From assembly GCA_963756875.1 (NCBI GenBank), contig CAVWPA010000001.1, positions 448,001 through 512,000 of the forward strand: DNA of 64,000 bases, in the 5' to 3' direction. How positions within the stretch are numbered: position 1 is the first letter of the stretch; every line of letters begins with the position of its first letter. Below are positions 30,001 through 36,000 of the stretch, one piece after another. This DNA comes from an uncultured Verrucomicrobiae bacterium (GTDB taxonomy: Bacteria > Verrucomicrobiota > Verrucomicrobiia > Chthoniobacterales > UBA10450). Position numbers: made by a program.

Positions 30001-33000
30001 GGCCGGCGCGGGGGCCGATGCGTAGGCTTCCGGCGCCCAGGTGTGAAAGGGAAAGAGTGAGACCAGAATTCCGAATCCGATCAACAGAAGCAGGTAGATA
30101 TTGTGCTGCGCCTCGGGTGCGATCTGATGCGCTGCGGTCGCAGCTTGCAGAGCGCGAATATCGAAACTGCGCGAAGCAGCCGGCACGCTTTCGTAAAGCA
30201 AGATCAGTCCGATAAGGAGAATGAAACTGCCCAGCGCAAGATAGATCGTGATTTTCCAGGCCGCCGCGACGCGATTGCCGGTCCCCCAGATTCCAATGAG
30301 CAGAAAAGTTGGAATGAGCGCCAGCTCGTGAAAGGCATAGAAGAAAAACAGGTCGAGCGAAGCAAACGCACCGAGCGCACCGCCGGATATGAACAGCAGA
30401 CAGGCGTAAAACGCCGGTTCGTATTTGTCGATCTTCCCGGCGAACCAGATGCTCGCCAGAGTCACAATCGCCGCGAGCAGGACCAGCATGAGGCTGAGGC
30501 CGTCGAGACCGGTCGCAAAATGGATCCGCCAGTCCGAAGACATCGTGAAGGAATTGACGAACTGAAAGCCGGACTGCAACCAGTCGTACTGGCTGTACAC
30601 TAAAAGCGTCAGGAGAAATGTAGCGCCTGCCGCGAGCAATGCGGTCAACCGCGCAGGCGCCCCGGCGATGATCAAAATTGCCGCAACAATCGGGCAGAAA
30701 ATAATTAAAAGAAGCATCAGTGGAAAACGGCGAAGTAGATGAGAACGACAATCCCGAGCCCGAACAGAAACGCGTAGGCCTGCAGGTTGCCCACTTGGAT
30801 TAAGCGAAGGATGGCGCCGAATCCCCAGGTGCCGCGACTCGCCCCACCCACCGCGCCGGCATCGATCACCCAGCGATCAAAGAATGCCGCGAAGCGCGAA
30901 AGGTTTTCCTGGGTCGCGTCGATCAGCCAATTGTAGAAATCGTCGATATAGAAGCGGCGTCGAAAAAGCTCGATCCTGATTGGGTCGCTGCTCCGGTTTG
31001 GATAAAGCCATATCACCAACAGGACCCCGAGCAGCATGGCGCCGATGGCGAGCACCGGAACGATAAGAACCGCCTGCTTCTCATGCGGGACGACCAGAAA
31101 TTTCTGCGCGAAAAATGGAGCGCCGCCGACAAGCGCGAGCAGCGCGAGGACAAGCAGCGGGCCGGTCATAACGAGGGGAGACTCGTGGCCCGCCCGGGCG
31201 GCGGGGGTTCGCGGTTTGCCAAAGAAAACGACGACAAGAAGGCGCAGGACATAGAATGCGGTCAGGAACGCCGTCAGCAGCGCAATGGCAAAGATGGCGC
31301 TGTTGCGATCGTAGGCCACGGCAAGAATGGCGTCCTTGCTAAAAAAGCCGCTGAATGGCGGGCAACCGATCAAGGCCAGGGCCCCCACGGAAAATGTGAG
31401 AAATGTGACCGGAAGATATTTCGCCAGGCCGCCCATTTTCCAGATGTCCTGTTCGTGATGCAGCATGACGATGACGGAACCCGCGCCGAGGAAGAGAAGC
31501 GCCTTAAAAAACGCATGAGTGAAGAGATGAAACATGGCCGCTTCGTTTGAAGCGAGTCCAATGGCCATCACCATGTAACCGAGCTGCGAGATGGTGGAAT
31601 AGGCGAGGATGCGTTTAATGTCGTCTTGTTGTGTCGCCATTAAGGCCGCGAGCACTGCTGTGATCGTTCCAATCCAGGCAATCACGTCGAGCGCGGATTG
31701 GGCCGCTTGAATGATGAAGCCGACCCGCACGAGCATATAAACGCCGGCGGCGACCATCGTCGCAGCGTGGATCAAAGCCGAAACCGGCGTTGGGCCTTCC
31801 ATCGCATCCGGCAGCCAGACGTGCAGCGGAAACTGCGCGGATTTCGCGGCCGCCCCGCAGAATATCAGAAGCGCCGCTGCGGTCAGATAACCCGGATTGC
31901 TCGTGACCCGTGACAACTGCGGCACGATGTCGTCGAAGACAATAGTGCCGGTGGACATCCAGACCATGAGAATTCCGAGCATGAATCCGAAATCGCCGAC
32001 CCGGTTTGTGAGAAAAGCCTTCTTCGCCGCTTCGGCCGCCGCGTCACGGTCGAACCAATGACCGATAAGCACGTAGGAAGTGAATCCGACAAGCTCCCAG
32101 AAAATGAACAACATGACGAAGTTGTTTGAGAGCACGATTCCGAGCATGGCGAACATGAAGAGGGAGAGGCCGGCGAAATAGCGCGATTTGCCAGGGTCGT
32201 CCCGCATGTAGCCGAGCGAATAAATGTGAATGAGCGAGCCAACCCCCGAGACCACGAGGAGCATGGTCCTGCTCAGTTGATCCAAAACGAAACCGAACGG
32301 AACGGTGAAAACCCCGCGCGCATCGATCCAATTATGCTCCGGCGCGGAAAGGTCCAGTCGTCCGAAGATCAGACAACTGCAGACAAAGCTTCCGAGAACC
32401 GCGCCGACTGAAATGTAACTGCTCAATGTTTTTGCCCGACCGGTCAAAACGGTGATGATGCCCGCGGAAAAAAGCGGCAAAAGCAGCGCATACCAGGGAA
32501 GCAGGGTGTTGGTGGTAAAGTTCAAGGTTTTAGAATTCGTCCGCTAAACACGCTAAAAGACGCCAAAATTCAGAGATAAATCGGTTCATCGGATTCGACG
32601 TTCCGGTGCGTTTTTGCGATCCGCTCATATTGCAGCTTTGGATAATGGCCAAAGTTGAGAAGCAAGCCGAGGTCGAAGCTTCCAGCCTTGAGATAGTTCA
32701 AAACCTGCGCGCGGTGCTCGTCTTTTATTTCCGCAACGGCTTTTAACTCGACTACGACTTTTCCAAAGCAAACGAAATCGGGAAAGTAACTTTGAGTGAG
32801 GACCTGGCCGCGATACTCAAGAGATAAGCCGGGTTGTCCAATTGCCGGAATGTGGCGATGCGCGAATTCAATACCGAGACATTCTTGATAAATTGGCTCG
32901 TGAAAGCCGCATCCTTTGTCTTTGTAAACTTCAAAGCACGCGCCAAGAATCGCATAGCATTCATCCTTTAAGATTAAATCCGGTGCCATTTTTTTTGGCG

Positions 33001-36000
33001 TCATTTGGCGTGTTTGGCGGATAGTCAAAATTTCAGTGAGTTAATGTCTTCGACGTGTGTGGTTTGGCGGATGCGATAGAGGGCTACGATGATGGCCAGG
33101 CCGACGGCCACTTCCGCGGCTGCAACGGTGATGATGAAAAAGACAAAGACCTGGATGTTGTAAGCGGGCATGCCCGCGGCATCGACATGAAACCTGGAAA
33201 AGGCGACCAGCGACAGATTGGCCGCATTCAACATTAGCTCCAGCGACATGAAAATAATGATGAGATTGCGCCGGAGCATGACGCCTGCAAAGCCGATCGC
33301 GAAAAGCGCGCCACTGACAATGAGATAATCGCCGAGCGTGATCATTCTATTTTTCTTTGCCCACGAAACACGCGAAAGGACGCGAAAGGACGCGAAAGAT
33401 TCGGAGAGAATCGGACGGCTTTGCAAATCGGCCGCATCTCTTTTCTCTTTCGTGTCATTTCGTGTGTTCCGTGGGTTGAAATCATCGAAGCTCGCGCCTG
33501 CTTAGGACAACGACGCCAATTGTGGCGACCAAAACGACCACGCCGATGATCTGGAACGGCAGGGTATAATGCGTGAAGAGCAAAATGCCGATCTGATGGA
33601 CGTCGTCGGTCGTCGGTTTGGCCAATGGAGGCATCGATCGGTGCGCGGCCTTGAAATTACCGATCACGTAAAGAATCTGGACGAAAAAAGCGAGGGCGAC
33701 GGCCACTCCGCCGGCTGAAGCAACCCAGTTGATCTTGCGCAGTTCTTCCGCCCGCAAATCGAGCAACATGATGATGAACAAGAACAGGACCATGATGGCT
33801 CCGGCATAAACGAGCACCTGAATGATTCCGATGAAATAAGCGTCAAGCGACATGAAAAGGACAGCCAGACACAGAAATGAAACCACCAGGCTGAGTGCGC
33901 TCGCCACCGGATTGCGGTTGATGACGACCGCCGCGCCGAACACCAGCATCATCAAAGCAAAAATCCAGAATAGAAAAGCAGGCATTTTATTAGGCCACCG
34001 ATGAACACAGATGAAACACGGATACGGAATTGAGATCAAAAAAATCTGCGATCATCTGTGTCAATCTGTGGCTTTACTTTTTTTCGTTCCATTTGAGCAC
34101 GACGCCGTGCATGACGCCGCCCATCTCCAGCAATTTGTCCTTGTGATGCATCATCTCTTCACGGGTGAATCCGGTGATGGCGTAGTCTTTTCGTAGAAAA
34201 ATTGCCTGTTCGGGGCAGACCTCCTCGCACATTCCGCAATAAATGCAGCGGACCATGTCAATGTCGAATTCCTCGGGATGCTTCTCGACTTTGGCGAACC
34301 GGTTGGTTGAGGGAATTTCGCCGGGAATGATTTTGATGGCGCGTGGCGGACAAATGAATTCGCAAAGCTGGCAGGCGACGCAACGGACGCGGCCAGCGGC
34401 ATCGCGCACGAGAGCAGGGGCGCCCCGATAATAATCGGGCAGGTTGGCGTCCCATTTCTCTTCCGGGTACTGCATCGTCACTTTCGTGCGACCAAGAATC
34501 ATGTTCTTGAAGTGCTTGATGGTAATGAACATGCCCGCAACGATCGCGGGCAGGTACATGCGCTCGCGCCAGTTCAATTTCGGACGTGGAACAGTGATCG
34601 CCATTTTGCTTTAACTCCTGCTCTTGCTCCTGATCGTGATCATGATCGATCCGCCTCGATCAAGAGCATGATCACGATCACGATTAAGAATAGGCGCCGC
34701 GATCATTGTGGAAAATAAGCGATGACGATGGCGGTGATAAAAATGTTAACGAGCGCGATTTCAAAGAAGAAGAGCCAGCCCAAACGCATCAACTGATCGT
34801 AGCGAAAGCGGGGCAGCGTCCAGCGTACCCACATGAATATAAAAATCAGGGCCGCAACCTTTGTGAAAAAAACCGCGATATTGATAAGTCCGAAAATCCA
34901 GCCATGCGAGCCGTCGGGAATTCCCGGAAAATGCCAACCCCCCAGGAAAAGCGTAACAATAACGGCCGAACCGGTGATCAGGGCCGCGTATTCGCCGAGA
35001 AAAAAAAGAGCGAATTTCATCGAGGAATACTCGGTGTGGTAACCGCCGGCCAATTCTTGCTCGGCCTCCGGCAAATCAAAAGGCAGCCGGTTCGTCTCGG
35101 CGAACATCGCAATCATGAAGACGAGAAATGAAATGGCCATGGGAATGGCCAGGAGCCATTTGCCGAGATTGGACCAGTCGCCGACGAACGGCACGATCAT
35201 CCACCCGTGCTCGATTTGATAGCGGACCACGCTGGTCAGGCGCAAATTTCCGACGACGAGAAAAACCGGGATAACTGCAAGCGCAAGCGAAAGCTCGTAG
35301 GAAATCATCTGCGAACTGGAACGAATGCCGCCGAGGAAAGGGTATTTGGAATTTGACGCCCAGCCGGCCAGGACGATGCCGTAAACGCCTAACGAAGCGA
35401 TGGCGAACACAAAAAGAATGCCGACATTGACGTCGGCGATGACCATTGGTACGCCAAAAAGCGTGCTGCCGAATGGGACCACGGCGATGGTGGTCATCGC
35501 GGGGATCATGACGAGGCACGGTGCAAGCCAGTAATAAAAAGTGTTCACGCTCGCGGGCGTGAAATCTTCCTTGAGGAGAAACTTCGCAGCATCTGCGATC
35601 GGCTGGAATAACCCGGCTGGTCCCACCCGGTTCGGCCCGAGACGGTCCTGAATCAGCGCGCTCACGCGTCGCTCCGCATAAACGGCGTAGGAAACCATCG
35701 GCAGAATCACAACGAAAATGATGCCGATGATTTTCAGGAGCGACGTTGCGATGAAAAAGATCATGTCGGTTGCGCGGCTAACGTCCTGGTGGTCTTTTGG
35801 CTTCCGCCCTTTCGATTTCGTGCATTTCCGGATCGACAGGCGGAGGCGGCGACTTACTGGCCCGGATCACTTGCACACCGCGGTCGCCGATTTTGCTCAA
35901 GCTCAATCCCGCGAACTCCGGAATGGCTTCGCTCATTTGCCGAAAAACGTCCTCGATAGAATAGATTCCATCACTCCCCGTGAGCGCTTGCAGCAGGTCG

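What a model noticed while it worked through the whole genome (the two positions that open the first line are those of the whole stretch)
32526..33024. GxxExxY (PDDEXK_3) and four-helix-bundle (23S-rRNA-IVS-protein) genes are single-gene cassettes bounded by inverted arra [...]
The 144-aa PD-(D/E)XK gene g00479 sits in a 502-nt insert exactly between the stop of nuoK and the start of nuoL; in relatives the two genes abut. The ORF is framed by 27-nt inverted repeats built from three 9-nt units (TCCGCCAAA CACGCCAAA TGACGCCAA). The same build holds for other PDDEXK_3 genes (g00473 between two pilT genes, g01535 between malQ and pcrA, g01940) and for the three 23S_rRNA_IVP genes (g00485 between nuoG and nuoF, g01010 between gap and pgk, g00691), each with its own repeat unit. 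ORF-less pairs of the CGCCAAA arms (about 85 bp) lie in four spacers. Two unrelated small-protein families of unknown function thus share one mobile-cassette architecture, like ORF-bearing interve [...]
Evidence so far: 8 of 9 such genes lie co-directionally 10-45 nt from both neighbours. Empty site: NuoK-NuoL distance within 45 nt in 25 of 28 measurable loci of Chthoniobacterales relatives, 117-169 nt in 3, 502 nt only here. Upstream flank against reverse complement of downstream flank versus shuffles: own PDDEXK_3 4 of 5, own IVP 3 of 3 with 200-nt flanks, relatives PDDEXK_3 16 of 17, IVP 19 of 21. Matched versus mismatched flanks on 46 genes: median 41 against 17 (95th percentile 23); 43 of 46 exceed it; 149 other own genes median 17. 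CGCCAAA arm: 23 copies, 20 outside called genes, 4 ORF-less inverted pairs at C2:145011, C3:1120195, C3:1174114, C3:1195837. PF13366 is listed as 'Unknown' in PMC3424549 (p [...]
(Added by a program. Inside this text positions count along the whole contig: contig position 448,001 is position 1 of the stretch shown here. "Call 12" and the like, gene names such as g00115 and contig names such as C1 are that model's own, and its searches are not shown. The text may have been shortened before it was handed on; [...] marks where a part breaks off. The agent that wrote the report below was given it as the finding of a first reader that could run no searches.)

Follow-up and report, generated by a model that had tools for sequence, protein, structure and literature searches.

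The report
Hairpin-armed nuclease gene cassette in nuo operon
A small nuclease gene of unknown function, enclosed by two mirror-image runs of a 9-base repeat, fills the gap between two respiratory-complex genes; it belongs to a widespread, apparently undescribed class of compact selfish gene cassettes related in design to the inserts found in ribosomal RNA genes.

Summary
A 144-aa GxxExxY/PDDEXK_3 gene (window 32570-33004, minus strand) lies between nuoK and nuoL, framed by 29-nt inverted arms (26 of 29 complementary) made of three 9-nt units.

One claim fails: the insert is not unique. Five of 29 relatives carry the orthologous cassette at this site, in one clade of a three-protein tree.

- Synonymous sites between these orthologues are saturated, yet the 5' arm is 28/29 identical.
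- Mismatches show no RNA-wobble bias.
- The variable unit positions change in concert in all units of both arms.
- ORF-less hairpins with the same arms occur only in 8 of 41 genomes, at 2-61 copies.
- Internal-deletion series at nuoJ|nuoK and nuoF|nuoG show how such hairpins can arise.
- The nuoF|nuoG spacer holds a PDDEXK_3 cassette in 13 genomes, a four-helix-bundle (IVP) cassette in 2, and nothing in 9.
- One other MAG has two 96% identical copies at unrelated loci, with identity ending at the arm ends.

Best reading: a hairpin-armed single-gene selfish cassette, built like ORF-bearing 23S rRNA intervening sequences and organised like REPIN/RAYT systems. How it moves is unknown.

This scan noted the same design earlier on other DNA. 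I found no published description.

The parts
30717..32525 (-). nuoL, the downstream neighbour. Its N-terminus MNFTTNT aligns from residue 1 only in some of the genomes that carry the cassette.
   Evidence: Pfam PF00361/PF00662; the query start positions of the tblastn hits.
32540..32568 (-). 3' arm of the cassette. It begins 2 nt after the cassette's stop codon and reads TTTTGGCGTCTTTTAGCGTGTTTAGCGGA in gene sense.
   Evidence: the repeat finder pair I1, 29 nt, 90% complementary; SW alignment.
32570..33004 (-). GxxExxY / PDDEXK_3 gene, 144 aa. The motifs GFHEPIY ... PDF ... ELK are intact.
   Evidence: PF13366 E 3.7e-37. TIGR04256. Invariant G33 E36 Y39 D76 K88 in 39 sequences. AF2 model pLDDT 88 with an alpha-alpha-beta4-alpha-beta2 core. 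Weak structural matches to Cas4 SSO0001 and lambda exonuclease.
32993..33021 (-). 5' arm, TCCGCCAAACACGCCAAATGACGCCAAAA. It starts 3 nt after the nuoK stop codon. The cassette's start codon ATG (33004-33002) lies inside the third unit.
   Evidence: The ATG within the arm is conserved in orthologues L005, L013 and L023.
33025..33330 (-). nuoK, the upstream neighbour.
   Evidence: PF00420; 75-90% identical in 29 relatives.
33360..33475 (-). ORF-less hairpin of the related CACGAAA/CGCGAAA unit type in the nuoJ|nuoK spacer. It is the end member of a decay series: 340 nt with a truncated PDDEXK_3 gene in G010, 186 nt in G008, 151 nt here.
37516..38005 (-). IVP (four-helix-bundle, TIGR02436) cassette in the nuoEF|nuoG spacer. 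Its arms, 37516-37547 and 37974-38005, are built of 6-nt units CTCWTG and pair in several registers.
25317..25788 (+). Second PDDEXK_3 cassette (P4) between two PilT-like ATPase genes. Its arms are 25317-25343 and 25762-25788: 27 nt, 93% complementary, units xxxACGGAT.

Best explanation
The insert is a hairpin-armed, promoterless, single-gene selfish cassette.

Anatomy. The unit is [array of 3 short repeat units] - small ORF - [the same array inverted]. It sits directly after the stop codon of one operon gene and directly before the start codon of the next, in the operon's orientation, so it is presumably read from the operon's transcript.

Shown:
1. Gene plus arms form one discrete unit that can be copied to a new locus.
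2. Once inserted, the unit is inherited vertically for very long times.
3. The protein and the arm sequence are both under purifying constraint.
4. All units of both arms evolve in concert.
5. The ORF can be lost by internal deletion while the arms stay, giving ORF-less hairpins.
6. Hairpins with the same arms reach very different copy numbers in related genomes.
7. The same spacer can hold a cassette with a PD-(D/E)XK nuclease gene or one with an Avd-like four-helix-bundle gene.

Inferred:
- The arms are sequence-specific end sites, not merely a stem.
- The PD-(D/E)XK nuclease, whose catalytic residues are intact, acts on them or on the hairpin or cruciform they form. It would thereby serve copying or retention, as the RAYT transposase is thought to do for REPINs.
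- The arm-arm stem in the transcript brings the upstream stop and the downstream start together. This makes insertion into tightly coupled operons and rRNA helices tolerable, as in the RNase III-processed 23S rRNA intervening sequences.

The copy in this window is an old, vertically inherited resident, not a recent arrival.
For: Discrete unit and movement:
- In MAG G041, two copies are 96.2% identical over 473 nt at unrelated loci, and identity stops at the arm ends.
- The CAGGAA-armed protein clade sits at nuoF|G in Chthoniobacterales but elsewhere in G042 and G045.

Vertical descent:
- The 6 genomes with an occupied nuoK|L site fall in one clade of 8 in a NuoJ+K+L tree.
- Their proteins are 72-83% identical, 59-62% to L002. 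Own paralogues are only 24-40% identical.

Constraint:
- nuoK|L orthologues have pN 0.08-0.24 against pS 0.73-0.97.
- In the nuoF|G family the median dN/dS is 0.12 where defined (68 of 300 random pairs).
- The 5' arm is 28/29 identical in four genera. The only free position is N in ACGCNAAA.

Concerted evolution:
- Variable positions agree between arms at 0.63-0.80, against 0.38-0.52 when shuffled.
- They agree equally between different units, at 0.56-0.78.

Decay series:
- nuoJ|K: 340, 186 and 151 nt.
- nuoF|G: G012 and G024 are internal deletions; G021 and G023 have frameshifts.

Arm populations:
- The CGCNAAA pattern gives 28, 61, 14, 7, 5, 2, 2 and 2 copies in 8 of 41 genomes, and 0 in the other 33. 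These 8 include all 6 cassette-bearing genomes. The reversed control gives 0.
- The CAGGAA pattern gives 0-137 copies.

Same-site swap.

Geometry in 65 nuoF|G cassettes:
- The 5' arm starts -4 to +5 nt from the nuoF stop in 57 of 61.
- The next start codon lies -2 to +13 nt from the 3' arm end in 32 of 37.

RNA side:
- The arm-arm stem appears in both the MFE and the centroid RNA fold.
- The genome encodes RNase III.

Architecture control: classical RAYT genes flanked by inverted REPs occur in the same genome.
Against: - No nuclease activity, binding or transposition has been shown.
- No consistent target-site duplication. The G041 copies both end in AATTTT on both sides, which cannot be separated from element sequence. 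In G017 a decayed 33-nt duplicate of the nuoK end follows the cassette.
- The IVP partner family has no known catalytic motif, so one enzyme-based mechanism cannot cover both families.
- ORF-less hairpins in G021 have loops of unrelated sequence and length, 24-130 nt. This is unlike copies of one MITE master.
- G021 and G023 have the highest CAGGAA arm counts (137 and 59) although their nuoF|G gene is broken. This argues against simple dependence on that gene.
- Mismatches show no sense-strand wobble excess: 74 sense G-U, 63 antisense, 117 transversion-type. There is thus no positive evidence for selection on RNA pairing.
- P2 has no arms, and P5 faces its neighbours.
- The co-distribution of arms and gene is confounded by shared ancestry.
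- The tree has no support values and is midpoint-rooted.
Confidence: 0.6

Rival explanations
1. A purely RNA-level 'mRNA intervening sequence'. The arms exist only to form a long stem in the operon transcript. RNase III cuts the stem, as in 23S rRNA IVSs, or the stem couples translation of the flanking genes. The conservation of the arms reflects host selection for operon expression, and the protein has nothing to do with the arms.
For: - The Coxiella IVS has the same build and is cut by RNase III at the first heptamer (PMC4990558, passages).
- The stem is predicted in both the MFE and the centroid fold.
- The rnc gene is present.
- The arms abut the stop and start codons.
- The arms are kept after the ORF is lost.
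Against: - There is no wobble bias: 74 against 63, with 117 transversion-type mismatches.
- Unit cores are invariant across saturated divergence, instead of drifting by compensatory change.
- Covariation is unit-wide, not pair-specific.
- This reading does not explain 0-137 dispersed copies, one between convergent and one between divergent genes.
- It does not explain why the arms are arrays of short units.
Confidence: 0.3
2. A REPIN/RAYT-like partnership. The PDDEXK_3 gene is a single-copy, vertically inherited, domesticated enzyme that copies the ORF-less hairpins. The hairpins are the true replicators, and the ORF-bearing copy itself no longer moves.
For: - The layout matches that of the RAYTs in the same genome.
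- There is one gene per arm type, inherited vertically.
- Arm populations are confined to the genomes of the cassette clade, apart from G031.
- G008, whose nuoK|L gene is frameshifted, has only 2 arm matches.
Against: - ORF-bearing copies do move.
- Hairpin loops are unrelated to one another.
- Several hairpins are demonstrably in-situ relics of cassettes.
- Arm counts are high where the gene is broken.
- There is no HUH motif.
- The arms are not self-palindromic REPs; the longest internal palindrome is 6 nt or less.
Confidence: 0.25
3. A free-standing homing-endonuclease gene. The nuclease cuts cassette-free alleles of conserved sites, and the cassette is copied in by repair using the conserved flanking genes.
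For: - Sites lie between highly conserved genes (nuo, gap|pgk, pilT).
- Sites show presence, absence and replacement at the same spot.
- The catalytic residues are intact.
Against: - IVP cassettes share the design without a nuclease fold.
- Copies occur at unrelated, non-homologous sites.
- Homing needs no inverted arms.
- The distribution at nuoK|L fits one old insertion.
Confidence: 0.1
4. No element at all: ordinary small host genes that happen to lie near generic intergenic hairpins or terminators.
For: Tandem-unit hairpins without ORFs are common in this genome: 24 tandem-unit pairs in my census, 4 of them ORF-bearing cassettes.
Against: - The arms hug the start and stop codons of 7 of 8 own genes, 23 of 26 IVP loci and 22 of 27 PDDEXK_3 loci.
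- Gene plus arms are inserted or absent as one block.
- Arm type tracks the protein phylogeny.
Confidence: 0.03

Closest known systems
ORF-bearing intervening sequences (IVS) of 23S rRNA (Coxiella burnetii helix 45, Leptospira; S23p = PF05635 ORF)
   Same: A small ORF is enclosed by inverted arms. Tandem short units lie directly upstream of the start codon, and unit number varies. There is no own promoter. IVP cassettes of the same protein family occur here (PMC4990558, passages).
   Different: This cassette sits in an mRNA operon spacer, not in rRNA. Its ORF is a PD-(D/E)XK nuclease, not S23p. RNase III processing is not shown here. Dispersed ORF-less arm pairs are not part of the IVS description that I read.
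REPIN/RAYT systems (REP doublets with REP-associated tyrosine transposases; PMC3116915, PMC3337134, listings and abstracts only)
   Same: The gene is flanked by its cognate repeats in inverted orientation. Many gene-less inverted doublets are dispersed in spacers. There is one gene per repeat type. Inheritance is vertical over the long term, and population sizes vary. Genuine RAYT/REP pairs are present in this genome.
   Different: The protein is a PD-(D/E)XK fold or a four-helix bundle, not an HUH Y1 transposase. The arms are arrays of 6-10-nt tandem units, not single imperfect palindromes. The ORF-bearing unit itself is copied. Many hairpins are in-situ relics.
MITEs and their autonomous IS elements
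   Same: There are terminal inverted repeats. Short derivatives arise by internal deletion. Elements nest inside one another.
   Different: There is no DDE, HUH or serine/tyrosine recombinase gene. No clear target-site duplication is seen. Derivative loops are not copies of one master. The element is only about 470-500 bp including its gene.
DGR accessory protein Avd
   Same: The IVP proteins here hit the Avd model weakly (NF033474, E 1.6e-7, below its cut-off) and match the pentameric structures 2GSC and 2RLD. The homology is stated in PMC10053308 (passages).
   Different: No reverse transcriptase or template/variable repeats adjoin the cassettes I examined. This was not searched systematically.

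Membership tests
PF13366 PDDEXK_3 / TIGR04256 GxxExxY | Profile match above the curated cut-off | tested here: met
   127.7 bits against cut-off 22; 126.3 bits against 35.
PF13366 PDDEXK_3 / TIGR04256 GxxExxY | GxxExxY motif and PD-(D/E)XK catalytic residues | tested here: met
   GFHEPIY, PDF and ELK are present. G33, E36, Y39, D76 and K88 are invariant in 39 sequences. The model has the nuclease core fold.
23S rRNA intervening sequence (ORF-bearing) | Located in a 23S rRNA helix (25 or 45) | tested here: not met
   It lies between nuoK and nuoL. The 23S gene is elsewhere, at C1:202042-205086.
23S rRNA intervening sequence (ORF-bearing) | Inverted arms forming a stem around the insert, with tandem short units before the start codon | tested here: met
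   compare PMC4990558.
23S rRNA intervening sequence (ORF-bearing) | ORF of the S23p/IVP family | tested here: not met
   This ORF is PF13366. The feature is met for the sister cassette at window 37516-38005.
23S rRNA intervening sequence (ORF-bearing) | Excision from the transcript by RNase III | not testable with these tools
   No RNA run was listed. Only the rnc gene and a predicted stem are available.
REPIN/RAYT | HUH Y1 (IS200-like) transposase | tested here: not met
   The only Pfam hit is PF13366. True RAYT-like ORFs with an HUH-type motif (PDHVH; family name assigned by eye, no profile search) lie elsewhere in the genome.
REPIN/RAYT | Gene flanked by inverted cognate repeats, plus dispersed gene-less doublets | tested here: met
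REPIN/RAYT | Each repeat is itself an imperfect palindrome (REP) | tested here: not met
   The arms have period 6-10 and an internal palindrome of 6 nt or less.
IS/MITE | Target-site duplication | tested here: inconclusive
   AATTTT is found at both ends of both G041 copies. A decayed 33-nt nuoK duplicate follows the cassette in G017. None is visible in the own copy.
Free-standing homing endonuclease | Cleavage of the cassette-free allele | not testable with these tools
   Only presence, absence and replacement at the same sites can be seen.

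The most novel reading that the evidence does not exclude
Hairpin-armed cassettes are a distinct, cross-phylum class of minimal mobile DNA of about 0.5 kb. Inverted arrays of short sequence-specific units are read by the cassette's own protein. That protein is either a minimal Cas4/lambda-exo-like nuclease or an Avd-like ring, and the two are interchangeable at one site. The same arms act in the transcript as a stem that splices the insert out functionally: RNase III cutting, or stop-start juxtaposition that preserves translational coupling. On this reading, 23S rRNA intervening sequences are just the rRNA-resident members. The abundant tandem-unit hairpins of soil Verrucomicrobia would be their relics and offspring.
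Probability: 0.25. Interest if true: 0.88.

Novelty: new variant of a known kind. Interest (0 to 1): 0.72.

Why it matters
PF13366 (GxxExxY) and PF05635/TIGR02436 (four-helix bundle, Avd-like) are very large families with no assigned function. PF13366 is listed as 'Unknown' in PMC3424549. IVP is called functionally uncharacterised in PMC11270868.

Both ride in one kind of cassette, and can replace each other at one site. This has four consequences:
- It gives both families a concrete, testable context.
- It offers an origin for the long-unexplained ORF-bearing rRNA intervening sequences.
- It explains many intergenic hairpin repeats.
- It would add a third enzyme type to the short list of long-lived repeat-plus-enzyme partnerships in bacterial genomes.

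There is also a practical gain. It explains odd 0.5-kb gaps inside otherwise tightly packed, conserved operons.

Tried and rejected
- RNA evidence: the look-up of sequencing runs listed no RNA holder for window 30000-39000.
- Broad alignment: alignment A1 of the five paralogues was too divergent for the search for related loci. I used the closer alignment A2 instead. It returned mainly Chthoniobacterales orthologues, so the cross-phylum sample is small.
- Mislabelled MAGs: two MAGs titled Limnocylindria and Nitrospirota (G043, G044) carry Chthoniobacterales-like nuo and malQ contexts. I do not count them as other phyla.
- Solved relatives: a sequence search of PDB with A1 found nothing. The fold search gave only weak generic PD-(D/E)XK neighbours, so no specific activity can be inferred.
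- Pair-specific covariation as proof of a stem: rejected, because non-paired units covary equally.
- 23S rRNA: the own gene is about 120 nt longer than the Rfam model and holds one 28-nt inverted pair. That pair is not built of tandem units, and I did not pursue it.
- Gene-strand context of ORF-less CGCNAAA hairpins: 10 of 12 lie between co-directional genes. This is not clearly above the expected background (background recalled, not measured).
- Literature searches for a prior description: 'GxxExxY' (3 papers), 'PDDEXK_3' (1), IVS+ORF+inverted repeats (2), IVP/four-helix-bundle/Avd (2), S23/IVS/inverted repeat (487, top 20 listings seen), and accession terms (6). None describes these cassettes outside rRNA. 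Subscription journals and supplements were not seen.
- Not run: complex prediction.

Full report
**1. What is at the coordinates**

All genes of the region lie on the minus strand.
- nuoL is at 30717-32525.
- A 144-aa ORF is at 32570-33004. It is PF13366 PDDEXK_3 (E 3.7e-37) and TIGR04256 GxxExxY.
- nuoK ends at 33025.

The ORF is framed by arms at 32540-32568 and 32993-33021: 29 nt, 26 of 29 complementary. Each arm is three 9-nt units: TCCGCCAAA CACGCCAAA TGACGCCAA.

The flank-against-flank score is 43, against a maximum of 24 in 100 shuffles. The 5' arm starts 3 nt after the nuoK stop codon. It contains the cassette's ATG, which is conserved in the orthologues.

**2. The rest of the genome**

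The assembly (3 contigs, 2.69 Mb) has 5 PF13366 and 3 PF05635 genes.
- Arms exceed all shuffles for 4 of 5 PF13366 and 3 of 3 PF05635 genes (I3 only marginally, 24 against 23).
- Each gene has its own unit: ACGGAT, ACAGAT, ACGAATG, CAGAGGA or CTCWTG.
By my ORF calls, 6 of 8 genes are co-directional with and tight against both neighbours.

An unbiased census of inverted repeats gave 148 pairs.
- Twenty of these are ORF-less hairpins whose arms are tandem heptamer to decamer arrays.
- It also found classical REP elements whose RAYT-like genes (HUH-type motif PDHVH; family name assigned by eye, no profile search) are flanked by inverted REPs. These serve as an internal positive control for the 'gene between its own repeats' layout.

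**3.

In 29 relatives' nuoK-nuoL loci (G007, with an empty site, is unpublished):
- 21 abut (-18 to +4 nt).
- 3 hold other ORF-less inverted-repeat elements (138-244 nt).
- 5 hold a 494-593-nt insert with an orthologous PDDEXK_3 gene: G010, G017, G008 (frameshifted), G012 and G021.

In a NuoJ+K+L tree, the six occupied genomes fall in one clade of eight. The tree was made with FastTree, is midpoint-rooted, and shows no support values. The proteins are 72-83% identical to each other, 59-62% to the G010 copy, and only 24-40% to the own paralogues. The simplest history is one old insertion, vertical descent and two losses.

**4. Constraint**
- Between the nuoK|L orthologues, pS is 0.73-0.97 (saturated) and pN is 0.08-0.24.
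- The 5' arm is 28/29 identical in four genera. The only free position is the N of ACGCNAAA, in both arms, and it is not compensated.
- The G010 copy has ACGCGAAT in all units of both arms.

A second, larger family was obtained with the search for related loci: 80 loci, mostly Chthoniobacterales/Udaeobacter MAGs. This is the PDDEXK_3 cassette in the nuoF|nuoG spacer.
- Its arms read ATGAATCAGGAAAGCAGGAAAGCAGGAAA.
- Median dN/dS is 0.12 where defined (68 of 300 random pairs).
- In 64 distinct arm pairs the CAGGAA cores are conserved at 0.88 or more.
- Variable positions agree between arms (0.63-0.80, against 0.38-0.52 shuffled). They agree just as much between different units (0.56-0.78).

This is concerted evolution of a repeat family, not pair-specific covariation. 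The shuffles ignore relatedness, so these numbers are not probabilities.

**5. Geometry**

In 65 nuoF|G cassettes:
- The 5' arm starts -4 to +5 nt from the nuoF stop codon in 57 of 61.
- The 3' arm starts -1 to +10 nt after the cassette's stop codon in 58 of 65.
- The next start codon lies -2 to +13 nt beyond the 3' arm in 32 of 37 measurable.

In some cassettes the nuoF stop overlaps the cassette's ATG, and the reverse complement of that ATG ends the 3' arm just before the nuoG start.

The sense RNA of the window's cassette folds with the arm-arm stem in both the MFE and the centroid structure (z = -1.87). RNase III is encoded at C3:688300.

**6. One site, two families**

Among 24 measurable genomes of 30 loci (G002 and G007 are unpublished and count among the intact ones), the nuoF|nuoG spacer holds:

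| State of the spacer | Genomes |
|---|---|
| Intact PDDEXK_3 cassette | 10 |
| Decayed PDDEXK_3 cassette (G021, G023 frameshifts; G024 internal deletion with arms kept) | 3 |
| Intact IVP cassette with unrelated CTCWTG arms (own genome) | 1 |
| The same IVP cassette internally deleted (G012) | 1 |
| Nothing (0-21 nt) | 9 |

**7. Origin of ORF-less hairpins**
- The nuoJ|nuoK spacer shows a decay series with the arms kept: 340 nt with a truncated PDDEXK_3 gene (G010), 186 nt (G008) and 151 nt (own genome, window 33360-33475). Of the 30 loci, 25 have 11-21 nt.
- ORF-less CGCCAAA hairpins in the own genome keep the first codons and the CTCTGA end of the ORF.

**8. Amplification and movement**

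Arm copy numbers among 41 genomes:

| Arm pattern | Result |
|---|---|
| CGCNAAA | Found in 8 genomes (28, 61, 14, 7, 5, 2, 2, 2 copies), including all six with the nuoK\|L cassette; 0 in the other 33; reversed control 0 |
| CAGGAA | 0-137 copies |
| CTCWTG | Most frequent in the two genomes with the IVP nuoF\|G cassette (29 and 18 overlapping matches), but present elsewhere |

Points against simple readings:
- G021 and G023 have the most CAGGAA arms although their nuoF|G gene is broken.
- G021 hairpin loops are unrelated in length and sequence, and some hairpins are nested inside others.

Direct evidence that gene plus arms is a discrete copyable unit:
- MAG G041 (record titled Thermodesulfobacteriota) has two copies 96.2% identical over 473 nt at unrelated loci. 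Identity ends at the arm ends, and AATTTT lies at both ends of both copies.
- The protein tree clusters by arm-unit type across sites and genomes.
- CAGGAA-type cassettes lie outside nuoF|G in G042 and G045.

**9. Generality**
- IVP: 23 of 26 loci analysed have tandem-unit arms. The count includes own I1, and loci of the unpublished G007 and G014 were left out.
- PDDEXK_3: 22 of 27 loci in five further MAGs have them. Two of those MAGs are really Chthoniobacterales-like.

**10. The proteins**
- The AF2 model of the window's protein (pLDDT 88) has the PD-(D/E)XK core. Its nearest solved folds are Cas4 SSO0001, lambda exonuclease and RecE, all weak (E 3e-4, TM about 0.5).
- There is no solved relative by sequence.
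- The IVP proteins are TIGR02436, match the five-chain entries 2RLD and 2GSC, and hit the Avd model weakly.

**11. Literature**
- The Coxiella IVS paper describes tandem GACAGAT heptamers before the S23p start codon, variable in number, with the RNase III cut at the first repeat. It also recounts old proposals that IVSs are mobile elements (PMC4990558, passages).
- PF13366 is listed as 'Unknown' (PMC3424549, passage).
- IVP is called uncharacterised and also occurs in rRNA insertions of CPR bacteria (PMC11270868, passages).
- PF05635 resembles Avd (PMC10053308, passages).
- REPIN/RAYT papers were seen as listings and abstracts only.
- No search found these cassettes described outside rRNA.

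**12. Earlier notes of this scan**

Many AI notes on other genomes describe the same design, with REPIN/RAYT or IVS as the closest known kinds. None was found on the same-site swap. I had reached both comparisons beforehand. One note's claim that the protein reads its own repeats was later marked as partly fallen, so I keep self-recognition as an inference only.

**13. Verdict**

The feature is real, and one uniqueness claim is corrected. The best reading is a hairpin-armed, single-gene selfish cassette:
- it is built like an IVS and organised like a REPIN/RAYT system;
- it is an old, vertically inherited resident here;
- its arms are constrained, concertedly evolving arrays of sequence-specific units.

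Whether the arms work as DNA ends, as an RNA stem or as both is open, and so is what moves them.

Noticed in passing
G000 C2:26120-26696, C3:1631620-1632206, C3:1596619-1597150, C3:1641493-1642032, C3:1591731-1592416 (outside the window); REP-like pairs in the window at 1026-1125, 16420-16579 and 59090-59201: Classical REP elements (GGGGAGCGCACGCGCCTCGCGTGC and a second type). Their RAYT-like genes (HUH motif PDHVH / PDHLH) are flanked by inverted REPs, and there are dozens of gene-less doublets.
   Followed up: partly
window 20559-20656, 46320-46394 (AACGYCS heptamer hairpins) and 13824-13956 (AAGCWCC heptamer hairpin): ORF-less hairpins whose arms are heptamer arrays. I found no ORF-bearing copy in this genome. 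There are at least 12 and at least 3 copies genome-wide in the filtered list.
   Followed up: partly
window 58445-58722 (C1:506445-506722); also C2:104113-104393 and other sites: A MITE-like element of about 280 bp with 33-nt terminal inverted repeats (TAGTGTTGTG...), present in several copies.
   Followed up: no
G000 C3:1557800-1559270 and C3:626590-627620: 'Graveyards' where several different tandem-unit arrays (AAGCACC, AACGCCG, CAGAGGA, GGGCRAA, CTCATG, CTGGAT) are nested in one another.
   Followed up: partly
G000 C3:1782799-1784088 (near the contig end): A 28-nt palindromic repeat (AAACTTGACTGCTTAAAGCAGTCAAGTT) recurring at irregular spacings of about 150-320 nt. Its nature was not examined.
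   Followed up: no
L158:2650-2828 (G000 C1, inside the 23S rRNA gene at 202042-205086): The 23S gene is about 120 nt longer than the Rfam model. It contains a 28-nt inverted pair, 82% complementary, with 123 nt between the arms. This may be a small ORF-less expansion or IVS; it is not built of tandem units.
   Followed up: partly
L005 (G017) nuoK|nuoL cassette: This cassette carries a third, direct arm copy after the stop codon. Between the cassette and nuoL there is a decayed duplicate of the last 33 nt or so of nuoK (27 of 33 identical).
   Followed up: partly
L166, L171, L177, L183 (G043) and L167, L176, L181, L186 (G044): MAG records titled Limnocylindria and Nitrospirota carry contigs with nuoF|G, nuoK|L and malQ|pcrA contexts 71-88% identical to this Chthoniobacterales genome. 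The likely cause is mis-binning or mislabelling.
   Followed up: partly
window 38017-40008 (minus strand): nuoE and nuoF are fused in one 664-aa ORF (2Fe-2S_thioredx + Complex1_51K + NADH_4Fe-4S) with a proline-rich C-terminal tail.
   Followed up: no
G041 C1:96550-120174: Four PF13366 genes lie within about 25 kb in this MAG, each with its own tandem-unit arms. This may be a cassette cluster.
   Followed up: no
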